This document shows positions 2,771-46,503 of a stretch of DNA of 64,000 bases, in pieces. Location: sequence record OM386658.1; one strand, written 5' to 3'. Below the pieces are notes generated by a model that made no database searches, was not told the DNA's origin, and saw only the letters and a list, made by a program, of their open reading frames with translations. A program made the position numbers and the translations under genes. The DNA is from Escherichia phage vB_EcoM_ESCO32. Every line of letters starts with the position of its first letter. Within the stretch, counting starts at the first letter, position 1.

Positions 2771-2968
2771 ATGATGCTAGATCAACTGATCAATGCTCCT
2801 CGCGTAACAGTAAGTCCAAAAACATTTGCATCACTTTTAGAAGATGCTAAAGAGGTTTATAACTTTACTGAAGAAGAGCTTCCTGTTCCTGTTGAAAAAG
2901 GTTCCAGATGGTTGTTTTATGAAGGTATTATTTTTACTGAAGGGAATAATTGGAAGGAGACTAAATGA
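2771..2968 (+). CDS. hypothetical protein
   Basis: Track ORF 2678..2968 trimmed to ATG 2771 preceded by AAGGAGG. Confidence 0.5.
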   Translation: MMLDQLINAPRVTVSPKTFASLLEDAKEVYNFTEEELPVPVEKGSRWLFYEGIIFTEGNNWKETK

Positions 2969-3954
2969 AATACTTAGTAACAGGTGGTTTAGGCTTTATT
3001 GGAAGTGCGGTAGTTCGTTTCCTGGCTAAAAATACTAAGAACGATATTTACGTTATAGATAAATGGGGTTACGCTTCAGATCCTAGAAATTTAGCAGAAA
3101 CACCTAATGTAAAGTTTTGTCGTGTTGACTTGACAAATGCGCAGGTAACTGCTAAGATTGTGGCAGATGTTAATCCAGATTATATAATGCATCTTGCAGC
3201 AGAAAGTCACGTAGATAATTCAATAGCATCACCGAGTGTTTTTATAAATTCAAATATTGTTGGGACATTTAATCTTCTAGAAGCTGTTCGTTTAATGGGA
3301 GATAAATCAAATCTTAAAATGTTCCATCATATTTCAACAGATGAAGTGTATGGTGATCTGGAAGAAGGGGATTATCCGTTTACAGAACAGAATCCTTATA
3401 AGCCAAGTAGTCCATATGCTGCATCTAAGGCAGCAAGCGATCATTTGGTAAGAGCGTGGCATCGTACTTATGGTATTCCGACAGTTATAACAAATTGTTC
3501 AAATAATTTTGGAGCATATCATCATCCAGAAAAACTAATACCTAAAACGATAACAAATATCTTGATGCATAAACCAATCCCTGTTTATGGCAATGGTCTT
3601 CAAGTAAGAGATTGGTTATACGTTGACGATCACGCAGAAGCATTACACCTAGTAGTAACTAAAGGCAAATCTGGAGAAACATATAATATTGGGAGCAGAA
3701 ACCCTAGAACTAATATTGATGTAATCTATATGATTTGTGATTATATGGATGCGGTGTATCCATCTGAAACAGATGCTTGTAGCCTCATTGAGATGGTTAC
3801 AGATAGACCTGGACATGATTTAAGATATGAAGTGAATCCTTATAAGATTGAAAAGGAATTAGGGTGGAAAGCTAAAGGCACATTTGAAGAAAAACTTTAT
3901 TCAACCATTGATTGGTATGTAGATAACAAAGAGTGGTGGGAAAATAAAGTTTAA
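2965..3954 (+). CDS. rmlB: dTDP-glucose 4,6-dehydratase
   Basis: 329 aa; N-terminal TGGLGFIGS Rossmann motif, YxxxK ([10 protein letters not shown]) catalytic motif, overall RfbB/RmlB-like. Confidence 0.9.
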
Positions 3955-3962
3955 GGAGGAGT

Positions 3963-4832
3963 ATGAAAGGTATTATCTTAGCAGGTGGTAGTGGAACAAG
4001 ACTTTACCCAGTTACTAAAGGGGTTAGTAAACAACTATTACCAATTTATGATAAGCCTATGATTTATTATCCGCTCTCTGTCCTAATGCTTTCTGGAATT
4101 AGGGAAATACTAATAATTACAACACCAGAAGATCAAATTAATTTTGTAAATCTTCTAGGTGATGGTTCTTCTTTTGGTATTTCCCTACAGTATGCAATAC
4201 AGGATAGCCCAAAAGGTTTAGCAGAAGCGTTTATTATTGGTGAGAACTTTATTGGTGAAGATTCTGTAGCACTTGTGCTAGGTGATAATTTATTCTTTGG
4301 TCAGAGTTTTGGTAGCATTTTAGATTCTGCTAAAGAACATATTGAAAAGAATGGTGGAGCTAATATTTTTGGGTATCACGTAAATGATCCTGAAAGATTT
4401 GGTGTTGTTGAGTTTGATTCTGAAGGTACAGTGGTGAGTATTGAAGAAAAACCAAAAGCACCAAAAAGCAACTACGCAATCACAGGCTTGTACTTTTACG
4501 ATAATTCTGTTATACAGAAAGCTAAGAGCGTTAAACCTTCTGCTAGAGGGGAGTTAGAGATTACAGATATAAATGAGATGTACTGGAAAGAAAAGACTTT
4601 ACGTGTCTGTAAACTAGGAAGAGGTTTCACTTGGCTGGATACAGGAACACATGAAAGTCTTATGGAAGCATCTCAATTTGTTCATGCAATAGAAAAGCAA
4701 CAAGGTATGAAGGTTGCATGCCTGGAAGAGATTGCTTTTAAAAATGAATGGATTACTTTAGACTCTGTAAAAAGTTCTGGAGAGGTTTTAAGTAAAACAG
4801 ACTACGGTAAGTATTTACTTAAATTAAAATAA
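3963..4832 (+). CDS. rmlA: glucose-1-phosphate thymidylyltransferase
   Basis: 289 aa; N-terminus [18 protein letters not shown]...[17 protein letters not shown] is the RmlA signature. Confidence 0.9.
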
Positions 4833-4844
4833 AGGGGGAATTAA

Positions 4845-5399
4845 ATGATTCAAGCAACAAAAATCGAAGATTTGTTGATCATTCAACCTGACGTTTACGG
4901 AGATGAACGTGGCTTTTTCTTAGAAAGTTTTAATCAGGCTTTATATGATCAATACATAGGTAAACAAAACTTTGTCCAAGATAACCATTCACGTTCTATT
5001 CGAGGAGTTCTACGTGGGCTTCATTTTCAAAAGAAAAACCCACAAGGGAAGTTAGTACGTTGTGTTCGTGGTGAAGTTTATGATGTTGCTGTAGATATTA
5101 GGGTTGGTAGTCCAACATTTGGAGAATGGGTAGGTGTTCTCTTATCTGAAAAGAATAAAACACAATTTTGGATTCCTCCTGGTTTCGCTCATGGCTTTGT
5201 TGTGATTAGTGACATTGCTGATTTTGAATATAAATGTACAGAATATTACGATCCGACTTCAGAGTGTAGTCTTGCGTGGAATGATCCAGATATCAATATT
5301 GATTGGGGTTTTGATTTAATCTTTAATGATATTAATTTTAAACCTATCTTGTCACAAAAAGATCAGGAAGCCAAAACACTAAAGGAGATCATATTTTGA
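4845..5399 (+). CDS. rmlC: dTDP-4-dehydrorhamnose 3,5-epimerase
   Basis: 184 aa cupin-type; RGFFLESF and RGLHFQ motifs typical of RmlC. Confidence 0.9.
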   Translation: MIQATKIEDLLIIQPDVYGDERGFFLESFNQALYDQYIGKQNFVQDNHSRSIRGVLRGLHFQKKNPQGKLVRCVRGEVYDVAVDIRVGSPTFGEWVGVLLSEKNKTQFWIPPGFAHGFVVISDIADFEYKCTEYYDPTSECSLAWNDPDINIDWGFDLIFNDINFKPILSQKDQEAKTLKEIIF

Positions 5400-6226
5400 C
5401 AAAATTTTTAATCTTTGGTTCAAAAGGTCAATTAGGACAATCTTTGGCAAAAGTTGCACCAGAAGATGTTATTTTGATTGAAGCAAGTGATATAGACATT
5501 ACCAACTTTAAAGATGTTATGAATAGTCTTGTACAGCACGTGCCTGATGTTGTTGTGAATTGTGCGGCTTACACGGCAGTAGATAAAGCTGAAGAAGATG
5601 TTAACACCTGTATAAATGTTAATGCATACGGTGCAACAAACATTGCCAAAGCATGTAATGATTTACTGATACAGTTTGTACATATTTCAACAGACTATGT
5701 TTTTGATGGGCATGTTGCTGGCACAGAAGATAGTAAAACAAACCCCTTGAACACCTACGGTTACAGTAAACAATTAGGTGAAACTTTAGTACAAACAGTT
5801 TGTCCTACAGCACTTACTATCAGAACAGCTTCTGTTTATAGTGAATTTGGACATAACTTTTTGAAAACTATGTTGGAACGCTACAACGGTGGTCAAAAAG
5901 AATTTAATGTAGTATGTGATCATTTGTCGTGTCCTACTTATGCACCTGATCTTGCAGAAACAATTTTTAAACTTGTAAAAGATGGTGTAAATAGTAAAAT
6001 TGTACACTATGCAGGTGCAGATTATATTTCTTGGTATGATTTTGCACGAAAGATATTTCTTGTTATAGATTTATCTGTTACAGTTAATCCTGTATCTGCT
6101 TCAACCTATAATTCCAAAGCAGTCAGACCAGCAACATCTTATTTAAAAACAGATCCTACTTTAAATCCGCGAAGTGTTGATAGCGGTATTGTAAGAACTT
6201 TAACTATACTTTTAAACAAGGAGTGA
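5396..6226 (+). CDS. rmlD: dTDP-4-dehydrorhamnose reductase
   Basis: 276 aa; TTG start overlapping rmlC stop, AAGGAG upstream; FGSKGQLGQ Rossmann motif, STDYVFDG motif as in RmlD. Confidence 0.85.
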   Translation: MTKFLIFGSKGQLGQSLAKVAPEDVILIEASDIDITNFKDVMNSLVQHVPDVVVNCAAYTAVDKAEEDVNTCINVNAYGATNIAKACNDLLIQFVHISTDYVFDGHVAGTEDSKTNPLNTYGYSKQLGETLVQTVCPTALTIRTASVYSEFGHNFLKTMLERYNGGQKEFNVVCDHLSCPTYAPDLAETIFKLVKDGVNSKIVHYAGADYISWYDFARKIFLVIDLSVTVNPVSASTYNSKAVRPATSYLKTDPTLNPRSVDSGIVRTLTILLNKE

Positions 6227-10594: not shown

Positions 10595-11257
10595 ATGAAG
10601 TTTGTACTGTATCATCGACTTTCTAAGAAGAAACAACAAGGCAACCAGTATGGTATAGAATCACAGGAAGCAGATATCCAACGCTTCCTGGATTCACAAG
10701 AAAATTATACTATTGTAGGTAGCTTTGCAGAGTTTTATTCTGGTAAAGGCGATTGGAAGCAACGTAGAGAGCTTGTAAAAGCTGTTAATCTTTGCAAAGA
10801 AACAGGTGCTACACTTGTTGTTGCTAAGGTTGACCGTCTGGGACGTAACACAGCTTCTGTTGCAACCTTGTTAGAGATGATTAATGTACGGATAGCAACT
10901 ATGCCCTCCGCTGAAAATATGATAATAAATATTTTAGCAGTTCTGGCAGAAGAAGAGGCTCGTGCAATATCTGATCGTGTTAAGAAGAGCCTTAAGGTAG
11001 CAAAAGCGAAGGGAACGCTTCTTGGTGCAGCAAACCCTAAATACAAAAGAACAGATTATACGAAAACGGAAGAAGCAAAACGCTCAAGAGAGTTTGCGCT
11101 TTCTTTAAAAGATTCTTTAGTTGCATACAGAGCTTGTAAAACGCCATATATGACGATTGCAAAGCATCTGAATGAATCAGGAAAGAGAACTATTCGTGGG
11201 AGTTTGTTCGATGCCAAAGCGGTACAACGTCTTTGTGCAAAATTGAATATTAAATAA
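10595..11257 (+). CDS. serine recombinase (resolvase/invertase family)
   Basis: 220 aa; N-terminal YHRLSKKKQ with catalytic Ser, VAKVDRLGRN matches the resolvase DRLGR motif, AVLAEEEARAISDRVKKSLKVAKAKG region, C-terminal HTH-like tail. Confidence 0.8.
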   Translation: MKFVLYHRLSKKKQQGNQYGIESQEADIQRFLDSQENYTIVGSFAEFYSGKGDWKQRRELVKAVNLCKETGATLVVAKVDRLGRNTASVATLLEMINVRIATMPSAENMIINILAVLAEEEARAISDRVKKSLKVAKAKGTLLGAANPKYKRTDYTKTEEAKRSREFALSLKDSLVAYRACKTPYMTIAKHLNESGKRTIRGSLFDAKAVQRLCAKLNIK

Positions 11258-12064: not shown

Positions 12065-12391
12065 ATGAAAATAACGACAGAACAGGCTTTAATAGACAAA
12101 GGAAGGGAAATCTTAGAAAGTCATTTGGAGGATATTCAAAGGACTCCAGGGTATCTCGGCTGGCGTATACAAGAAGCCGTCGATTTTCTACCCCGTAAAA
12201 ATAAAGAGATTGAAGTAAGATCTCTATTCCTCCTTGTTAAAGTAGATGGTGACGCTATATACAAAGATGTAGCGTCTCACATTGAACAAATAGAAGAAAA
12301 AGCCTACAAAGAATTTGCAGATCTTGTTGTAGAACATAATATAGAAGGTAAAGTTAATATCTTTATACTTATGGATTTTGAGGAGAGTTGA
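12065..12391 (+). CDS. hypothetical protein
   Basis: Track ORF; AAGGAG SD. Confidence 0.6.
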   Translation: MKITTEQALIDKGREILESHLEDIQRTPGYLGWRIQEAVDFLPRKNKEIEVRSLFLLVKVDGDAIYKDVASHIEQIEEKAYKEFADLVVEHNIEGKVNIFILMDFEES

Positions 12392-13134
12392 TGTTAGTAT
12401 ATCAAGAAATTAGTGTAAAAGATGATCAAGACCTGTTTATTATTGGTGATTTACATGGTTGCTTTGATTTGTATCAGAAGGGTGTTAATACTTTAGGTAT
12501 CCGAGATCAAGATGTTGTTGTATCTTTAGGAGATCTTACAGATCGCGGCAAGCAGAATTTTCGTTGTGTTGTTGAATTCACCAGAAAGCTAAATCGTTAT
12601 GGTATTCGTGGAAATCATGAAGATATGATGATTAAAGGGTTGCTAGAAGGTGATAGACGATATTACGAATGTTGGTTTCAGAACGGAGGCCATACAGTTC
12701 TAGACGAGTGTGGAGAAGAGGGTGCAACTGCTCTTGCTTTGATGCTAGAAGATTTACCTGTTGTACTTGTTGTCAATTATCGTAATATGAAACTAGGCTT
12801 TATTCACGGTGGGTATCCTTCAGTTTTGGAACATTTACCAGTAACAGAAGTTTTGCCATTTTGTTTGAATATGAATAAAGAGCAAGTTTCTCGATTCACA
12901 GAATCTTTAATGTGGGATCGTGATATGATAGATTGCGCACTTGAAGGGATTCTTCTTCCTAGGGTTTCAGGAGTAGATTATGTATTTCACGGGCATTCTT
13001 ATGTTCCTAAACCTGTAATTAGCAGTAATAGGGTATATATGGACACAGGATCTTGCTTCAATGGTAATTTAACCTTTGCATATTTTGATGATTCAAATAC
13101 GTTACAATTTTATTCTACTTTAGAGGAGGATTAA
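12391..13134 (+). CDS. Ser/Thr protein phosphatase (calcineurin-like metallophosphoesterase, lambda-PPase type)
   Basis: Motifs GDLHGC, GDLTDRG, GNHE in canonical order; ATG 12391 after GAGGAG. Confidence 0.8.
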   Translation: MLVYQEISVKDDQDLFIIGDLHGCFDLYQKGVNTLGIRDQDVVVSLGDLTDRGKQNFRCVVEFTRKLNRYGIRGNHEDMMIKGLLEGDRRYYECWFQNGGHTVLDECGEEGATALALMLEDLPVVLVVNYRNMKLGFIHGGYPSVLEHLPVTEVLPFCLNMNKEQVSRFTESLMWDRDMIDCALEGILLPRVSGVDYVFHGHSYVPKPVISSNRVYMDTGSCFNGNLTFAYFDDSNTLQFYSTLEED

Positions 13135-13464: not shown

Positions 13465-14043
13465 ATGAGCGATTTATTCTACACAGGTGTTGGTAGCAGA
13501 GATATTACAGACGAAGAATGGGATACTATGGTATCTGTTGCAAAATGGTTATCTACATGGTTCATTTTGCGGTCTGGTAAAGCAGAAGGTGCAGATTCCG
13601 CATTTGAATGCGGGGTATATGATAGTGGGAACAATACGAAGAAAGAAATATACATCCCTTGGCTCTCGTTTAAAGGTAATGAGATAGAGGGAGAGGTTAT
13701 TGTTCTTGACAGACCAGATAGTGTAAACTATGCTTTAACCTTACAATATGCAAAAGAATTGCATCCAGCTTGGGACAGATTATCTCAAGGTGCTAAAAAA
13801 TTACATCAAAGAAATATCCACCAAGTTCTTGGAAGAGATCTTGAGAATCCAAAACCATCTTGTTTTCTTTTAGCTTGTGCAAATACAGATAAAAATGGAG
13901 ATCCTTTAGGTGGTACAAGAACAGCTTGGATGTTGGCTAAAAAGTTTAATGTCCCTTGTTTTAATATTCGAGGTAAAAGTAAAAAACAAATTTTCGAATT
14001 TATTAAGCCTATTTTAGAGGAGAATGGTCTTGTCCAGAAATAA
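13465..14043 (+). CDS. DprA/Smf-like (SLOG Rossmann) protein
   Basis: Track ORF trimmed to ATG 13465 after AAGGAG; GVGSRDITDEE...LRSGKAEGADSAFE fits the GSR...SG.A.G.D pattern of DprA/LOG-type Rossmann domains. Confidence 0.5.
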   Translation: MSDLFYTGVGSRDITDEEWDTMVSVAKWLSTWFILRSGKAEGADSAFECGVYDSGNNTKKEIYIPWLSFKGNEIEGEVIVLDRPDSVNYALTLQYAKELHPAWDRLSQGAKKLHQRNIHQVLGRDLENPKPSCFLLACANTDKNGDPLGGTRTAWMLAKKFNVPCFNIRGKSKKQIFEFIKPILEENGLVQK

Positions 14044-16287: not shown

Positions 16288-16409
16288 TGGAAACATTGTG
16301 GAAAGGCTGGAAGACTGCTCTGATAGCTTTTATAATTCCATTAACTTTTCTTGGTTGGTGTTTTTGGGAATTTATCTTTTGGTTAATTTCCCATATACAT
16401 TGGGGGTAA
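16287..16409 (+). CDS. small hydrophobic peptide, 40 aa
   Basis: ORF below threshold, TAATG overlap with methyltransferase stop; predicted TM helix. Confidence 0.35.
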   Translation: METLWKGWKTALIAFIIPLTFLGWCFWEFIFWLISHIHWG

Positions 16410-16410
16410 T

Positions 16411-17019
16411 ATGACTCAAAAAGTTGCATATCAAGTAGATCGTGAAGATGGTGAAGGTAGTGTTGTAGTTTTTGATACACATGGCCTTGCAGCAAGACGC
16501 AAAGGAGCTTGTCTACTGGACATTGGTGGTGAAGATGAATACTGCACTGTACGTAGAGTAAAAGAATTTGATCAATATGCTGAAAAAGGTTTTGTACCTG
16601 TGAAAGCACTATTAGAAGCTGGATGGTGGATACCTAGTGCACATGATTATGATATTTTGGAAGATACAGATGAATTCAACAGCGAGGATTTTGTTTTTTC
16701 TCTGGATGAAAAATGCGTTTGGAAAGACTGGGATGAAATGGAACGCCATGCTTATTTTATAAACGAAGCATTAGATCGTAAAACTTGGTTTGAAAATACA
16801 GTTAAAGCAGCGTATCCTCAATTTACTTTTACACAGTTTTGGGGTGGCCCACATCATATTACTCATACAGCATATTTCGAGTTCCCAGGTTCACGTTATA
16901 AAGGTACTGTTTATTGGGATTGGGACGAGGACAAAGAACCTTCTGCTCAAGACTTCCGTTGCTATGTTTGTCAAGGTGATCAAGAAGCCCTTGACAAGTA
17001 CCTTAAAAGTCTGGTATAA
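16411..17019 (+). CDS. hypothetical protein
   Basis: Track ORF. Confidence 0.6.
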   Translation: MTQKVAYQVDREDGEGSVVVFDTHGLAARRKGACLLDIGGEDEYCTVRRVKEFDQYAEKGFVPVKALLEAGWWIPSAHDYDILEDTDEFNSEDFVFSLDEKCVWKDWDEMERHAYFINEALDRKTWFENTVKAAYPQFTFTQFWGGPHHITHTAYFEFPGSRYKGTVYWDWDEDKEPSAQDFRCYVCQGDQEALDKYLKSLV

Positions 17020-17035
17020 TCCGTAAAACTTAACC

Positions 17036-17061
17036 AAAGCCCCCAGGCAGGGGCTTTATTT
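17036..17061 (+). terminator. rho-independent terminator
   Basis: GCCCC-caggca-GGGGC hairpin plus TTTATTT. Confidence 0.55.
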
Positions 17062-17074
17062 GTCTGGAGAATAT

Positions 17075-17605
17075 ATGGGTTTTGATGACATGTTATTATA
17101 TGAGGAGGCTTGTGTGAAAGAAGCTATGGCTTTACCAGTTTTATCTATTGATATTACAACAGTAGACACTTTTTCAGATTGTGAAACGTGTGGATCGTAT
17201 TCGTCTATTGTACATGAGGTTAGTGGGGATTTAGGCACTTACGAAGATGGAGATTATGCAAGTTGTTTAGGTGATAATCGAGATGGTGAAGTGGCGAATG
17301 TTGCAAACTGGATTGCTTCTAAGTTAAAAGAAAGAAATCGTCCGTTCCCTAATCTTCTTACACCAGAAGCTATGCTTAAAGCTGAACAAGAGATGTATGA
17401 TTATGGTTATAAAGTAGATTATGACTATAATGATCCTAAATATAAAAAATTGAGTGACAAGTATTGGGAACTAGCTAATGCTTATGATAAATACTACTCT
17501 ACAGAAAACATTGTTAAATTGTTTTTAGATTTTGGAGTAGAAATTAATTGGGATTTCGAAGAGGAAGAGCGTTACGACGCATCTTCTTGGGATGATGATT
17601 ACTAA
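17075..17605 (+). CDS. hypothetical acidic protein
   Basis: Track ORF 17060..17605 trimmed to first ATG. Confidence 0.55.
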   Translation: MGFDDMLLYEEACVKEAMALPVLSIDITTVDTFSDCETCGSYSSIVHEVSGDLGTYEDGDYASCLGDNRDGEVANVANWIASKLKERNRPFPNLLTPEAMLKAEQEMYDYGYKVDYDYNDPKYKKLSDKYWELANAYDKYYSTENIVKLFLDFGVEINWDFEEEERYDASSWDDDY

Positions 17606-17616
17606 GAGGATATTGA

Positions 17617-18429
17617 ATGCGAAGAGTAATTTTTGTTAGTGGCGCAGGTTTAAGTGCAGACAGTGGGATTCGAACGTTCCGAACAGACACAGATAGTGGT
17701 CGTGCCTTATGGGAAGAATATGACTTAGAAGAGGTCTGCGATATTGGAGCTTTCCAAGCAGGTTATCGTGTGAGAACATCTCCAGATCTTCCAGTGGTCG
17801 GTGGTGTAGACGAGAACGGTATGGACTTGTATGCCAAAACACACGAATTTTATAACAAAAGACGTGTTGAGCTTAAAGATGTACAACCTAATGCTGCACA
17901 TATTCAAATAGCAAGGTGGTTTAAGGAATATCCTAACCAAGTAGTAAACTTGACAACAAACGTTGATGACCTACTAGAGCGAGCAGGTGTAGACAGGGAT
18001 TCTGTTATTCACGTGCACGGATATCTTCCTGAAGTAGTTTACCGTATGCATCCTGGAGATTACAAAACACTGGTAGACATTGGTTACAATAGTATAAACA
18101 TAGATGATTATAACTGGGTGAAGCCTAATGTTGTATTTTTTGGTGAGGCTGCACCTTTGTATGCAGATATGGCTCACTTGTTTGATACTTTGACCATGCA
18201 AGATTTGGTTGTTGTAGTAGGATGTTCAAACCAAGTTATCAATTTTAATTGGGAATTATTCCCTGCACTTAATATGGGTACAAAAATGATCGTTGTTAAC
18301 CCAGGAATTAATTACGAAGAAACTCTTCTTTACGAAGATAGAGGAGTCTTTGTTTATAGAGAAAAGGCAGCAGATGCTTTTAGCAATCCTGCTTTCATAA
18401 AAATGATAGAAGATCATTTGACTAAGTAA
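17617..18429 (+). CDS. Sir2-family (sirtuin-like) NAD-binding protein
   Basis: 270 aa; N-terminal VIFVSGAGLSADSGIRTFR matches the Sir2 GAGISxxxGIPxFR motif; GGAG SD. Confidence 0.7.
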   Translation: MRRVIFVSGAGLSADSGIRTFRTDTDSGRALWEEYDLEEVCDIGAFQAGYRVRTSPDLPVVGGVDENGMDLYAKTHEFYNKRRVELKDVQPNAAHIQIARWFKEYPNQVVNLTTNVDDLLERAGVDRDSVIHVHGYLPEVVYRMHPGDYKTLVDIGYNSINIDDYNWVKPNVVFFGEAAPLYADMAHLFDTLTMQDLVVVVGCSNQVINFNWELFPALNMGTKMIVVNPGINYEETLLYEDRGVFVYREKAADAFSNPAFIKMIEDHLTK

Positions 18430-18436
18430 CTTAACC

Positions 18437-18460
18437 AAGGGGGCGAAAGCCCCTTTTCTT
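18437..18460 (+). terminator. rho-independent terminator
   Basis: GGGGC-GAAA-GCCCC hairpin plus TTTT. Confidence 0.6.
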
Positions 18461-18473
18461 ATAGGAGAATATT

Positions 18474-18731
18474 ATGACCACAGAACAAATCGTTAAAGAC
18501 CATTTTATGATGCACTACGTTTATTACTTCAATAATAATCAACAGAAAGGTGAGGGATTTTGTTATCTATCTGCACAACAAGGTTTTGGTATCCGTCAAG
18601 CAGATATTAACGGGGCAGTGGCTGGGATTACAAAAGGCTTGGTTGCAAACCTTAAAGACAATGTTGTTGTTGTCCCAACATGCATCTCTTATCTCTCAAC
18701 CTGTCCTGAAGAAGATTTTATGCATTCCTAA
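18474..18731 (+). CDS. hypothetical protein
   Basis: Track ORF; AGGAG SD. Confidence 0.55.
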   Translation: MTTEQIVKDHFMMHYVYYFNNNQQKGEGFCYLSAQQGFGIRQADINGAVAGITKGLVANLKDNVVVVPTCISYLSTCPEEDFMHS

Positions 18732-18797
18732 AACCTCCTGTAACGCATTCTAACGCACTTTTTATTTTAGTAATACGTTTCCCTACCTTATGCAAAC

Positions 18798-18833
18798 AAA
18801 AGCCCCTAGAAGCGATTCTAGGGGCTTTATTTT
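18798..18833. terminator. bidirectional terminator at convergence of plus and minus transcription units
   Basis: 10-bp stem AGCCCCTAGA/TCTAGGGGCT flanked by A-run and T-run. Confidence 0.6.
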
Positions 18834-18906
18834 AGTCTTCTGTAAAATATCCTATGACAACAATGATAAAGATGATTAACACTACGATACTCTCTAGTAA
18901 AGTCAT

Positions 18907-19128
18907 CTATAAATCTCGTTCATATAGTTCAATTATCAATTCATCCTCTGCTGTTATCGTACCAATTTGCCAAGTGTGAAGATAAACCTCTGTGTAAGAG
19001 TGTATCTTACTATCTAACAAGCACAACCACGTATTGTTGCTTACCTTTTCTTGAATATGAACCTTAACCACGAAAGGGTGAGGGTTATCTACTAAGAAAC
19101 CAATACTACCTTCTACAACTACAGACAT
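18907..19128 (-). CDS. hypothetical protein
   Basis: Track ORF; AGGAGG SD. Confidence 0.55.
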   Translation of the reverse strand: MSVVVEGSIGFLVDNPHPFVVKVHIQEKVSNNTWLCLLDSKIHSYTEVYLHTWQIGTITAEDELIIELYERDL

Positions 19129-19184
19129 AATACCTCCTATTGTTTATGCTAAAAGTGTTTATAACATATAAAGAGCATATATAC

Positions 19185-19210
19185 AAGAAAACCCGCCGAA
19201 GCGGGTTTAT
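19185..19210 (-). terminator. rho-independent terminator (minus strand)
   Basis: ACCCGC-TTCG-GCGGGT hairpin with T-run on minus strand, just downstream of gene 19214..19537. Confidence 0.55.
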
Positions 19211-19213
19211 GCG

Positions 19214-19537
19214 TTATACAATGTGTTTTGTTTTAACGTGCGAAGATTTAAAAATCTTATTATGTAATGAAATACGATTATCACGGAACACATAATAGTT
19301 AGCAACATCTGGCTTATCAACACAGAGTGTAGCCACAACTTTCATAGGTATAGATACATTCTCACGAAGAGTAACACTACCTTTCAAACGTTCAGATGAA
19401 ATGTGAATCAAACCTTCTTTTTCATCAATGACAACTTCTTTAACATTTTTGAAATTATAACAAGAGTTGTCAATATAAGATACCCTTGCCTTTGTTTGCT
19501 TCTGTTTAGGACGAGAACCAGTGTTTATTTTTTGCAT
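19214..19537 (-). CDS. hypothetical protein
   Basis: Track ORF; AAGGA SD. Confidence 0.55.
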   Translation of the reverse strand: MQKINTGSRPKQKQTKARVSYIDNSCYNFKNVKEVVIDEKEGLIHISSERLKGSVTLRENVSIPMKVVATLCVDKPDVANYYVFRDNRISLHNKIFKSSHVKTKHIV

Positions 19538-44772: not shown

Positions 44773-45324
44773 TCAGGAAATATCAGATTGTGCTTTTAGA
44801 TAAACAGCAAGGTCTGTATGCCATTTTCCTAAAAGATTTTGTCCTTTCCAACAGTCCTTATTTTCCACATCACGATCCCACATCCCCATTTTGATACCAT
44901 AAATAGAATCATAAGGGCTTGCCTCTACGAACTCCTTATCGGCGTAAGCAATAAGTTTATTTTTGAGATCTTCATTTTGTGTGTATTTAAGATACAAACC
45001 ACGCTTGACAATCTTCTCTCGTAAAGAAGTCCAGGTATCTTCATCATAATCTTTAACTAATCTGCCTAGTCGCTTATAATATGCTTGTTCTTTTTCTCCT
45101 GTATATCTTAGACCTCCGGTTAAAATAGAAGATGCAATGTTGTAATCATAAAATAAACATGCTTTTCTCCACATCATATATTGTTCCACACAAGTAAATT
45201 CAACAGAACTTGTAATAGAATTATTATACTTGGGAGCTAAAGGTTCAATAAAAGATGATAGATACCAGTTGCTAAATTCATCTTTTGCCGAGAAGAAGAA
45301 CACATACTTATCAGTAATCCGCAT
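44773..45324 (-). CDS. NADAR-domain protein (YbiA/DUF1768-like)
   Basis: 183 aa; FSNWY...VEQYMMWRKACLF...GQNLLGKWHTDL resemble YbiA/NADAR motifs FSNF...SEHYFQAQKF...N.LG; AAGGAGG SD. Confidence 0.55.
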   Translation of the reverse strand: MRITDKYVFFFSAKDEFSNWYLSSFIEPLAPKYNNSITSSVEFTCVEQYMMWRKACLFYDYNIASSILTGGLRYTGEKEQAYYKRLGRLVKDYDEDTWTSLREKIVKRGLYLKYTQNEDLKNKLIAYADKEFVEASPYDSIYGIKMGMWDRDVENKDCWKGQNLLGKWHTDLAVYLKAQSDIS

Positions 45325-46503
45325 TTACACCTCCTTACTGTATACTAACTTGCCACCATGTTGTGTAATAATTTTTTGAAGATTTTCCAAATCAGAAGCA
45401 CTTACTGTTTCTGTATGACCATCTTTCAACTCTCTTGCTGTTAAAATACCAGTTTTTAGTTTTTTCTTTATAGCTCTTTCAGCAGCCTTACACTGTTTCA
45501 CTGTACTAAAATCATATAAACAAATACGCTCCATAAAAAACATATTATGCCTATTTTGATTGTTTAATCGCCTGTCACTATCTTTAGCTATGCCAAACTT
45601 AAGAGCAACTATAATATCATTATCTTTAACAATATTAATATATAATTGCTGTTGACTATGACCTGCACATTGTGGACAACCTTGACCGTGGCTTAATAAG
45701 TTATTAACACGCCCTATCTGCTCCCCATGCACAAGACAAAGATATTTAAACTTACCTGTAGAAGATGGTTTGGTAATCCAATCTACCCAGACATACCCTT
45801 TCCCTTCTACTTCCTTTTTTACCCTATAGGTGATCTGGTCTTCTGTATACTGATAGTTCCCACAACGACACGGAATGTACCCTTGTTTAAGGCGATTTCC
45901 TTTAGAGTAAAATTTACCATCACAAACACCTGCTTGAACATATTCATCATGAGAGCAAACAGGACATTCAACCATCCAGGTAATATGCCTACATCCTTTA
46001 CCCCGTGTTCCTGTGTTAGTGAAGATAGTGCCTTCCTTAAATTTCCCTGTAGAAAAGAAACCTGCAATATGTTGATCGTCGGACATTGTTTGTTTCTCCC
46101 TCCTACATTGTGGACAACCTCGACCGACTTTAAATTGATCAATTGCTGTACTTTGCCATCTATTCCCACAATGGCACAACAAATCAAGTTTTGTGTAACA
46201 CCCTTTCCATTCTCCAACGTACCCTAATACTTGATACTCCTTCTTCTGTGCTATCTCTTCCAAGATCGGTAATTCTGCTTCCCATGTTAACGGCTTATTC
46301 CTTGCACATGTCGGACAACCACGTCCATTCTTAAAATCATTAATGCTCGTGGTGTTCCATTCTCCATGATCAGAGCAAGATAGCTTAAGTTTAGTCTTGT
46401 TCCCTTTCCATTCTCCCGTCCATCCTAAGATTTGGATTTGCTTACTCTCTGCTATTGGTTGACACTCTTCTTTATATTGTTCCCATGATTTTGGTGCTAC
46501 CAT
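45325..46503 (-). CDS. putative nuclease: triplicated Zn-ribbon repeats plus C-terminal GIY-YIG-like (T5orf172-type) domain
   Basis: 392 aa; three repeats of G(W/Y)xGEWKG..TKLxLxC...GRGCPxC; C-terminal LYINIVKDNDIIVALKFGIAKDSDRRL resembles the T5orf172 pattern. Confidence 0.5.
   Translation of the reverse strand: MVAPKSWEQYKEECQPIAESKQIQILGWTGEWKGNKTKLKLSCSDHGEWNTTSINDFKNGRGCPTCARNKPLTWEAELPILEEIAQKKEYQVLGYVGEWKGCYTKLDLLCHCGNRWQSTAIDQFKVGRGCPQCRREKQTMSDDQHIAGFFSTGKFKEGTIFTNTGTRGKGCRHITWMVECPVCSHDEYVQAGVCDGKFYSKGNRLKQGYIPCRCGNYQYTEDQITYRVKKEVEGKGYVWVDWITKPSSTGKFKYLCLVHGEQIGRVNNLLSHGQGCPQCAGHSQQQLYINIVKDNDIIVALKFGIAKDSDRRLNNQNRHNMFFMERICLYDFSTVKQCKAAERAIKKKLKTGILTARELKDGHTETVSASDLENLQKIITQHGGKLVYSKEV

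What the first reader, a model, noticed from the sequence alone, without database searches (positions are those of the whole stretch)
17617..18429. Sir2-like NAD-binding protein encoded by the phage
The N-terminal motif VIFVSGAGLSADSGIRTFR is the Sir2 Rossmann/NAD-binding signature. Sir2 domains are known as effectors of bacterial anti-phage systems; a phage-borne copy could instead be a deacylase / ADP-ribosyltransferase acting on host targets or a counter-defence enzyme. It is bracketed by its own terminators.
Basis: partly seen in the sequence, partly recalled or inferred. Interest (0 to 1): 0.6.

Follow-up and report, generated by a model that had tools for sequence, protein, structure and literature searches.

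The report
Phage sirtuin of the T5.102 family
This is a real and probably active NAD-using sirtuin gene in a phi92-like E. coli phage; the family is already annotated in about a thousand phage genomes, and I found no experimental test of what it acts on.

Summary
The ORF at 17617-18429 (+), 270 aa, is a genuine Sir2-family protein (Pfam SIR2 3e-22; PHROG 2162 2.5e-105). The window is a Justusliebigvirus (phi92-like) coliphage. The same gene is already annotated as Sir2/sirtuin in 983 phage records, including T5 (T5.102).

Sequence and predicted fold (pLDDT 92) place it in the canonical CobB/Sir2Af1/SIRT5 lineage, not with defence-type NADase SIR2 domains or SirTM. The NAD-binding loop, Asn115/Asp117, catalytic His134 and the class III Tyr79/Arg82 pair are conserved.

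Three things are unusual. All zinc-binding cysteines are gone. The invariant Gln of TQNID is an invariant Thr, the state printed for two NADase-type SIR2 chains. It also falls far below the CobB equivalog cut-offs.

It is co-transcribed with an unknown 176-aa acidic protein, so it does not have an upstream terminator of its own.

I found no experimental work. A 2022 comparative-genomics paper predicts an RNA-repair (Tpt1-like) role. I confirmed the supporting neighbourhoods in other phages, but in this lineage the RNA ligase cluster lies about 30 kb away, T5-like carriers mostly lack such a ligase, and the family is acidic.

Best guess: an NAD-dependent deacylase of anionic acyl-lysines (about 0.4). 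Ordinary finding; modest interest.

The parts
16991..17020 (+). Sigma-70-type promoter-like site (TTGACA, 18 nt, TATAAT, with TG before the -10) overlapping the end of the 202-aa ORF 16411-17019. It is a possible host-RNAP promoter for the two-gene unit.
   Evidence: 12 of 12 consensus matches, the only perfect site in 16300-19300. Sequence. Function not tested.
17027..17057 (+). 11-nt motif AACTTAACCAA (17027-17037) running into a GC-rich hairpin (17036-17057) with a weak T tail. This terminator-like element lies upstream of the two-gene unit.
   Evidence: (-13.1 kcal/mol, z only -0.8). It was also scored as a terminator on the - strand.
17075..17605 (+). Upstream ORF of 176 aa (ATG at 17075; the ORF listing extends it to a TTG at 17060). 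It is very acidic (pI 4.05), has four invariant Cys (C13, C36xxC39, C64) and an acidic C-terminal tail, and is co-transcribed with the sirtuin. Function unknown.
17604..17610 (+). Shine-Dalgarno sequence AAGAGGA for the sirtuin gene. It overlaps the TAA stop of the upstream ORF.
   Evidence: Sequence.
17617..18429 (+). Sirtuin CDS of 270 aa, belonging to PHROG 2162 (the family of T5.102).
17641..17682 (+). NAD-binding loop GAGLSADSGIRTFR (residues 9-22).
   Evidence: Aligned to CobB GAGISAESGIRTFR. S13, S16, F21 and R22 are invariant and G9, A10, G11 and G17 are conserved in at least 90% of 56 homologues.
17851..17862 (+). Tyr79 and Arg82, the class III sirtuin YxxR pair (CobB Y92/R95, SIRT5 Y102/R105) that binds the carboxylate of succinyl- or malonyl-lysine.
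   Evidence: Alignment; invariant; CobB numbering checked; role of the pair from PMC4253809.
17953..17967 (+). TTNVD (residues 113-117) in place of the canonical TQNID. Asn115 and Asp117 are kept and Gln is replaced by Thr114.
   Evidence: T114, N115, V116, D117 invariant; Thr co-varies with loss of the Cys ligands, Fisher p = 1e-13; TTNYD/TTNFD printed for the SIR2 chains KomC and FAM118B.
18016..18018 (+). Catalytic His134 in VIHVHG.
   Evidence: Aligned to CobB H147 in IHMHG; invariant.
18022..18126 (+). Small-domain beta module (residues 136-170) at the position of the sirtuin zinc ribbon. It contains no cysteine.
   Evidence: 0 Cys against 4 in CobB; three strands 135-143, 151-154 and 167-172; block pLDDT 96-97.
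18136..18147 (+). FFGE loop (residues 174-177), the counterpart of the canonical VWFGE loop.
   Evidence: F174, F175 and E177 invariant.
18428..18463 (+). Second copy of AACTTAACCAA (18428-18438), then an intrinsic terminator hairpin (18437-18455) and a T-rich tail, starting at the sirtuin stop codon.
   Evidence: (-15 kcal/mol, z -2.7).

Best explanation
The gene encodes a catalytically competent sirtuin of a phage-associated branch of the canonical (CobB/Sir2Af1/SIRT5, class III-like) lineage. It binds NAD+, expels nicotinamide and, with His134 as general base, passes the ADP-ribosyl group to an oxygen nucleophile on a substrate. The most likely substrate is an acyl-lysine, probably carrying a negatively charged acyl group such as succinyl or malonyl, on host or phage proteins. 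On that reading it is an NAD-dependent protein deacylase that the phage brings in as an auxiliary enzyme. It is transcribed as the second gene of a two-gene unit, with an unknown acidic protein ahead of it, possibly from a host-type promoter. Shown here: family membership, conserved catalytic and NAD-pocket residues, a canonical sirtuin fold, and the operon layout. Inferred: actual NAD turnover, the acceptor, and the targets.
Against: The Gln of TQNID, which I take from background knowledge to be conserved in characterised deacylase sirtuins, is an invariant Thr. That residue was printed at this position for two SIR2 chains, the NADase KomC and FAM118B. All zinc ligands are lost, and the zinc module is reported as required for deacetylation by canonical sirtuins (PMC12700824). 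The segment after the GTS motif is a clade-specific GCSNQVINFNW rather than GTSxxVxP. Scores fall far below the NCBIfam CobB cut-offs (86 against 320 bits; 106 against 243). E. coli already has CobB. Gene neighbourhoods in other phages point towards RNA-end repair enzymes rather than protein modification. No biochemical data were found.
Confidence: 0.4

Rival explanations
1. RNA-repair sirtuin, as predicted by Iyer, Burroughs, Anantharaman and Aravind in 2022. The enzyme would use NAD+ the way Tpt1/KptA does: it would ADP-ribosylate a 2'-phosphate (or a terminal phosphate) on cleaved or re-ligated RNA, typically tRNA cut by host anticodon nucleases, and release ADP-ribose cyclic phosphate. It would work alongside phage RNA ligase, kinase, cREC, HAD and calcineurin-type phosphoesterases.
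For: PMC9503650 makes this prediction for this clade and names phage V5, Mydo and SP15. I confirmed the neighbourhoods independently. In Vequintavirus AlexBoehm the order is RNA_lig_T4_1, cREC_REC ('cyclic-phosphate processing'), sirtuin, with polynucleotide kinase and a phosphoesterase alongside and a tRNA array nearby. In Mydo the order is phosphoesterase, RNA ligase, P-loop kinase, sirtuin, DNA ligase. In T5, HAD_SAK_2 ('Swiss Army Knife RNA repair') lies three genes downstream. More distant zinc-less relatives sit next to RlaP (twice), PTH2 (overlapping gene), HAD_SAK_2 and NADAR; a bacterial copy sits next to a calcineurin-like phosphoesterase. The two-step chemistry of sirtuins and Tpt1 is formally parallel (background knowledge). 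The Tyr/Arg pair could bind a phosphate as readily as a carboxylate (inference).
Against: The evidence is contextual only. Across 18 lineages in 52 viral loci no neighbour is universal. In this phage lineage the phosphoesterase, RNA ligase and kinase cluster lies about 30 kb from the sirtuin and outside the window. Rnl1-type ligase is found in 811 phage records but only 14 named Salmonella, against 289 for the sirtuin, so most T5-like carriers lack it. A T4-type kinase/ligase pathway leaves no 2'-phosphate to remove (background knowledge). The family is uniformly acidic, which is unusual for an RNA-binding enzyme. To my knowledge no sirtuin has been shown to act on RNA.
Confidence: 0.27
2. NAD+ glycohydrolase, or an ADP-ribosyltransferase acting on a non-acyl acceptor (a host protein side chain or a small molecule). 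On this reading the Gln-to-Thr change and the loss of zinc mark a shift away from deacylation towards the chemistry of SIR2_2 or SirTM enzymes, used for host takeover or to feed ADP-ribose and nicotinamide into phage pathways.
For: KomC, an NADase, reads TTNYD and FAM118B reads TTNFD at this motif; ThsA, DSR2 and a SIR2-HerA-type chain were also retrieved by the probe, though their alignments were not printed. SIR2_2 proteins lack the zinc module. In 143 cluster representatives Thr co-varies with loss of the Cys ligands (33 and 8 against 12 and 77; Fisher p = 1e-13), which suggests a coordinated functional shift. The phage lineage carries several ADP-ribose-processing genes: NADAR in the window (44773-45324), and a macrodomain protein and a PRPP synthetase-like plus Nampt-like pair in the closest annotated genome.
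Confidence: 0.2
3. Counter-defence enzyme that protects the phage from NAD-depleting immunity or destroys NAD-derived immune signals.
For: The evidence is only circumstantial. The phage lineage invests in NAD and ADP-ribose genes, and the sirtuin lies near NAMPT or a NadR-like gene in some relatives.
Against: A sirtuin consumes NAD+ rather than restoring it. The counters to an NAD-depleting system reported in the paper I read are NAD+-biosynthesis genes (PMC11482910). No paper found links a phage sirtuin to anti-defence.
Confidence: 0.05

Closest known systems
Phage sirtuin family typified by T5.102 (PHROG 2162), also found in rV5-like, Mydo-like, phi92-like and phAPEC8-like phages
   Same: The protein matches PHROG 2162 full length at E 2.5e-105. 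It is 99.6% identical to the annotated 'putative Sir2-like protein' of Escherichia phage arall, 52.8% to T5, 56% to Mydo and 48% to Vequintavirus copies. It shares the invariant TTNVD motif, the cysteine-free module and the Tyr/Arg pair with them.
   Different: Nothing material. In this subfamily (Stephanstirmvirinae) the gene is paired with a lineage-specific 176-aa acidic ORF and sits apart from the RNA ligase cluster.
E. coli CobB and the other class III (SIRT5-type) lysine deacylases, plus Sir2Af1
   Same: These are the best sequence and structure matches. They share the NAD loop, the Asn/Asp pocket residues, the catalytic His, the FGE loop and the YxxR carboxylate-binding pair.
   Different: Identity is only 27-29%. 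Gln129 of CobB is Thr here, and none of the four Cys that CobB has in the zinc-module segment is present. There is an insertion of about 20 residues in the helical module (residues about 46-70) and a different segment after the GTS motif. Scores are far below the CobB equivalog cut-offs.
Defence-type NADase SIR2 domains (SIR2_2: ThsA, DSR2, SIR2-HerA, KomC, FAM118B)
   Same: Thr is found at the motif position (TTNxD; printed for KomC and FAM118B) and the zinc ligands are absent.
SirTM, the macrodomain-linked ADP-ribosylating sirtuins
   Different: No macrodomain gene is adjacent; the nearest one in the related genome lies about 46 kb away. Sequence identity is 12-14%.
Tpt1/KptA RNA 2'-phosphotransferase
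   Same: The similarity is only a proposed functional analogy: NAD+-dependent removal of a phosphate by way of an ADP-ribosylated intermediate (PMC9503650).
   Different: The fold is unrelated and the protein is not a family member. The analogy has not been tested experimentally.

Membership tests
Sir2/sirtuin superfamily (Pfam PF02146) | Score above the Pfam gathering threshold | tested here: met
   79.9 bits against a cut-off of 24, E 3e-22.
Sir2/sirtuin superfamily | Rossmann-fold large domain plus a small domain, with structural similarity to solved sirtuins | tested here: met
Sir2/sirtuin superfamily | NAD-binding GAGxS...SGIxxFR loop, Asn/Asp of the nicotinamide pocket and the catalytic His of the HG motif | tested here: met
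   GAGLSADSGIRTFR, N115, D117 and H134, conserved in 56 homologues and aligned to CobB.
Canonical deacylase sirtuins (SIR2 subfamily) | Invariant Gln in the TQNID motif | tested here: not met
   Thr114 is invariant in the phage clade.
Canonical deacylase sirtuins (SIR2 subfamily) | Cys ligands of the structural zinc in the small domain | tested here: not met
   There is no Cys in residues 136-168, and the whole protein has only C41 and C203. The beta module itself is predicted to persist. Metal content cannot be tested with these tools.
Class III sirtuins (SIRT5/CobB type) | The Tyr-x-x-Arg pair that binds the carboxylate of anionic acyl-lysines | tested here: met
   Y79 and R82 are invariant and align to CobB Y92 and R95. 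The role of the pair is taken from PMC4253809.
CobB equivalog (NCBIfam NF040867, PRK00481 subfamilies) | Score above the curated equivalog or subfamily cut-off | tested here: not met
   86.4 against 320 bits, 106.3 against 243 and 82.7 against 318.
NAD-dependent protein deacylase (activity) | NAD+-dependent removal of acyl groups from lysine with formation of O-acyl-ADP-ribose | not testable with these tools
   This needs an enzyme assay. No published assay of any phage sirtuin was found.
Phage sirtuin family PHROG 2162 (T5.102-like) | Full-length profile match and presence in phage genomes | tested here: met
   E 2.5e-105 over residues 1-269; 983 phage records hold a relative, 912 of them covering at least 80% of the query.
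Defence-associated SIR2 NADases (ThsA, DSR1/2, SIR2-HerA, SPARSA and others) | Match to a PADLOC defence SIR2 model, the SIR2_2-type fold, and fusion or pairing with a sensor | tested here: not met
SirTM (macrodomain-linked sirtuins) | Operon with a macrodomain protein | tested here: not met
   The neighbours are a 176-aa acidic ORF and an 85-aa ORF. The macrodomain gene of the related genome lies about 46 kb away.
Predicted phage RNA-repair sirtuin systems (Iyer et al. 2022) | Conserved neighbourhood with RNA ligase, cREC, kinase, MazG, HAD or calcineurin phosphoesterase genes | tested here: inconclusive
   The feature is met in Vequintavirus, Mydo and T5. In this window only a calcineurin-like phosphoesterase lies nearby, 4.5 kb upstream. 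No RNA ligase or kinase homologue is in the window, and the cluster is about 30 kb away in the related genome.

The most novel reading that the evidence does not exclude
The zinc-less TTNVD sirtuin clade of phages may not be a protein deacylase at all. It could be the first sirtuin that acts on nucleic acid, using NAD+ to ADP-ribosylate and remove a phosphate on damaged tRNA or RNA ends (Tpt1-like) as part of phage repair of host anticodon-nuclease damage. This idea was published as a prediction in 2022 and, as far as I could find, has not been tested.
Probability: 0.27. Interest if true: 0.75.

Novelty: already known. Interest (0 to 1): 0.33.

Why it matters
Sirtuin genes are present in about 2% of sequenced phage records (983 of 50,697), including the classic model T5 and several groups used in phage therapy work. 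I found no experiment that says what they do. This copy sits in a phage group that infects E. coli K-12 (the BASEL phage EmilieFrey is 98% identical), so knockouts and biochemistry are straightforward. If the enzyme is a deacylase, it would show phages resetting host protein acylation. If it acts on RNA, or is an NADase, it would extend the known chemistry of canonical sirtuins. It would also explain the coordinated loss of the zinc site and of the motif Gln. As a scan finding, however, it re-detects a gene that is already annotated.

Tried and rejected

2. CobB orthologue: NCBIfam scores are a third or less of the cut-offs. Rejected as an equivalog.

3. RNA-repair partners inside the window: tblastn with RNA ligase, cREC, kinase, phosphoesterase, MazG-like and T5 neighbour proteins found only the sirtuin itself. 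There are no tRNA genes in the window.

4. A universal neighbour: clustering ORFs from 52 IMG/VR loci (18 lineages) found none. The most widespread one is a DprA-like/SLOG protein in 7 lineages, 3-8 kb away.

6. Literature: five searches for experimental work on phage sirtuins found none (and 18 for the PhageMaP paper, whose 'Sir2' mentions concern the host Sir2-HerA system). Searches for the role of the motif Gln ('TQNID', 'Q140L', 'TTNYD') gave nothing useful.

7. Foreign origin of the gene: GC content (0.36-0.41) and strand skew match the flanks.

8. The AACTTAACCAA motif as a repeated regulatory element: it occurs exactly only at the two sites flanking the unit, and the count with one mismatch is not above chance.

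Full report

An ATG-initiated ORF runs from 17617 to 18429 on the + strand and encodes 270 aa. A Shine-Dalgarno AAGAGGA lies 6 nt upstream of the ATG.

It scores 79.9 bits on Pfam SIR2 against a cut-off of 24 (E 3e-22). It matches PHROG 2162 'Sir2 (NAD-dependent deacetylase)' over its whole length at E 2.5e-105.

The window is phage DNA. A 4-kb stretch is 98.3% identical to Escherichia phage EmilieFrey (Justusliebigvirus, Stephanstirmvirinae, the phi92-like phages), and 55 further records hold most of the stretch.

Differences from three close relatives are mostly synonymous. GC content and strand skew match the flanks.

The statement about terminators is only half right. A good hairpin with a T tail starts at the stop codon (18437-18455). 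The nearest upstream terminator-like hairpin (17036-17057) precedes the previous ORF (17075-17605). That ORF ends 11 nt before the sirtuin start, with nothing between them. The transcription unit is therefore two genes, possibly driven by a perfect sigma-70-type promoter at 16991-17020.

**2. What is it?**

By sequence, the nearest solved relatives are all lysine deacylases: CobB, Sir2Af1/2, Sir2Tm and SIRT5.

It is therefore a member of the canonical sirtuin lineage, not a captured defence effector.

**3. Which catalytic features are kept?**

The following are conserved across the 56 phage homologues (alignment to CobB; CobB numbering checked):
- the GAGxS...SGIxxFR loop;
- P91, N92 and H95;
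- N115 and D117;
- the catalytic His134 (CobB H147);
- F174, F175 and E177;
- G202 and S204;
- N228.

Tyr79 and Arg82 are also invariant. They correspond to CobB Y92/R95 and SIRT5 Y102/R105, the pair that recognises the carboxylate of succinyl- and malonyl-lysine (PMC4253809).

**4. Which features are lost?**

First, the Gln of TQNID is an invariant Thr, giving TTNVD.

Second, the region that forms the zinc ribbon in canonical sirtuins contains no cysteine at all, against four in CobB. It is still predicted as a confident three-stranded module.

Third, there is an insertion of about 20 residues in the helical module, and a clade-specific GCSNQVINFNW replaces GTSxxVxP.

In 143 representatives of 50%-identity clusters from an exhaustive search, Thr and loss of the cysteines go together: 33 Thr with two Cys or fewer, 8 Thr with three or more, 12 Gln with two or fewer, and 77 Gln with three or more (Fisher p = 1e-13).

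A short probe showed TTNYD in KomC and TTNFD in FAM118B. The same probe retrieved ThsA, DSR2 and a SIR2-HerA-type chain, but their alignments were not printed. SIR2_2 proteins also lack the zinc module, which is reported as needed for deacetylation by canonical sirtuins (PMC12700824).

NCBIfam places the protein far below every CobB cut-off.

In short, it has a canonical fold and pocket, with two changes that converge on the NADase type.

**5. Distribution**

tblastn finds relatives in 983 of 50,697 phage records. These include T5 (52.8% identity, T5.102), T5-like Salmonella and Klebsiella phages, rV5-like phages (about 48%), Mydo-like phages (56%), Phapecoctavirus (65-69%), phage 7-11 and Vibrio jumbo phages (about 38%). 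Nearly all are already annotated as Sir2 or sirtuin.

The more distant zinc-less relatives are mostly on phage-like metagenomic contigs. One bacterial chromosomal copy also turned up.

**6. Genomic context**

In this lineage the sirtuin follows a 176-aa very acidic protein (pI 4.05). That protein has four invariant cysteines and an acidic tail, and it is found only in Stephanstirmvirinae-like phages. Neither sequence nor fold searches explain it.

Further upstream lie:
- a 202-aa unknown ORF;
- a Dcm-type methyltransferase;
- a DprA-like/SLOG protein;
- a calcineurin-like phosphoesterase.

The closest annotated genome also has, outside the window:
- a phosphoesterase, RNA ligase and polynucleotide kinase cluster about 30 kb away;
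- a PRPP synthetase-like plus nicotinamide phosphoribosyltransferase pair;
- a tRNA array;
- a macrodomain protein.

A NADAR gene lies inside the window.

Across 52 IMG/VR loci in 18 sirtuin lineages, no neighbour is universal.

**7. Does the published RNA-repair prediction hold?**

Iyer et al. (PMC9503650) proposed that most phage sirtuins act like KptA/Tpt1 on RNA 2'-phosphates. Their argument rests on neighbourhoods with RNA ligase, cREC, kinase, MazG, HAD and phosphoesterase genes.

I reproduced those neighbourhoods:
- RNA_lig_T4_1, cREC_REC, sirtuin in Vequintavirus;
- RNA ligase, kinase, sirtuin, DNA ligase in Mydo;
- HAD_SAK_2 three genes downstream in T5.

I also found new contexts in distant relatives:
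- RlaP, SIR2, NADAR;
- SIR2 overlapping PTH2;
- SIR2 overlapping a NadR-like gene, with HAD_SAK_2 nearby;
- NAMPT and RlaP close to SIR2.

A bacterial copy is paired with a Metallophos phosphoesterase.

Several points weigh against the prediction. The link is absent in this phage. Most T5-like carriers lack an Rnl1-type ligase: 14 Salmonella-named records have the ligase against 289 with the sirtuin. A T4-type repair pathway leaves no 2'-phosphate (background knowledge). The whole family is acidic, with pI 4.65-6.05.

**8. Verdict on mechanism**

That it is an NAD-cleaving sirtuin is well supported. The acceptor is not established.

I rank the possibilities as follows:
- a deacylase of anionic acyl-lysines, about 0.4 (homology, fold, the intact acyl pocket with Tyr/Arg, the acidic surface);
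- RNA-end ADP-ribosylation or dephosphorylation, about 0.27 (recurrent but non-universal context);
- NADase or another ADP-ribosyl transfer, about 0.2 (Thr motif, zinc loss, ADP-ribose-processing genes in the phage);
- a counter-defence role against NAD depletion, about 0.05.

**9. Novelty**

The gene, its family and its annotation are already known, and a functional prediction has been published. What this analysis adds is small: the co-variation of the Thr motif with zinc-ligand loss inside an otherwise canonical fold, the retained class III Tyr/Arg pair, the acidic character of the family, and the two-gene operon in phi92-like phages.

I found no experimental characterisation in the searchable literature. 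The function therefore remains an open and easily testable question in E. coli K-12 phages.

Noticed in passing
window 17027-17037 and 18428-18438: An exact 11-nt direct repeat, AACTTAACCAA, occurs only twice in the 64-kb window. Each copy runs straight into a GC-rich terminator-type hairpin, and the two copies flank the two-gene unit (acidic ORF plus sirtuin). This could be a shared terminator architecture or a trace of cassette insertion.
   Followed up: partly
window 17075-17605 (+): The ORF co-transcribed with the sirtuin is very acidic (pI 4.05), with invariant C13, C36xxC39 and C64 and an acidic tail. It is restricted to Stephanstirmvirinae-like phages and has no recognisable fold relative. 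GenBank calls it 'putative aminoacyl-tRNA synthetase', which I could not substantiate; the only hint is a sub-threshold PhetRS_B1 hit at E 0.03.
   Followed up: yes
window 16991-17057 (+): A perfect sigma-70 consensus promoter (12 of 12, with an extended -10 TG) sits inside the end of the 202-aa ORF. A terminator-like hairpin follows it within 16 nt. A promoter followed so closely by a hairpin is an odd arrangement.
   Followed up: no
window 44773-45324 (-) and 45325-46503 (-): A NADAR-domain protein (E 3e-36) lies next to a protein with CapR repeats and a T5orf172 domain. It is another member of the NAD/ADP-ribose network in the same phage.
   Followed up: partly
window 13465-14043 (+): A DprA-like/SLOG Rossmannoid protein (phrog_768) recurs within 3-8 kb of the sirtuin in 7 of 18 lineages, including some T5-like ones. 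It is the most widely shared neighbour found.
   Followed up: partly
window 12388-13134 (+): A calcineurin-like phosphoesterase lies 4.5 kb upstream of the sirtuin. A bacterial zinc-less sirtuin relative (L071/L072) has a Metallophos gene immediately downstream, so this pairing may be meaningful.
   Followed up: partly
L002 6142-6648 (phage T5 gene T5.105): RefSeq labels T5.105 'Sir2 (NAD-dependent deacetylase)', but it is a HAD_SAK_2 phosphatase (Pfam E 4e-20). This looks like an annotation error that may propagate.
   Followed up: yes
window 2965-6226 (+): Four consecutive genes correspond to those annotated in the near-identical EmilieFrey genome as the dTDP-rhamnose pathway (dTDP-glucose 4,6-dehydratase, glucose-1-phosphate thymidylyltransferase, 3,5-epimerase, reductase). 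That is unusual cargo for a lytic phage.
   Followed up: no
window 10595-11257 (+): A serine recombinase/resolvase (Pfam Resolvase, E 8e-22) is encoded in a phage group that I understand to be strictly lytic.
   Followed up: no
phage records MG065661, MG065655 and MG065672: Records named 'Campylobacter phage' C9, C2 and A141 carry sirtuin and RNA ligase genes. The RNA ligase genes of C2 and A141 are about 97-98% identical to that of a Vequintavirus coliphage. This suggests mislabelled or contaminating coliphage genomes.
   Followed up: no
NC_027356.1 (phage DT57C): In the T5-like phage DT57C only residues 193-228 of the sirtuin are matched under a feature still annotated 'sir2'. The gene may be truncated or disrupted there, which would mean it is dispensable.
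   Followed up: no
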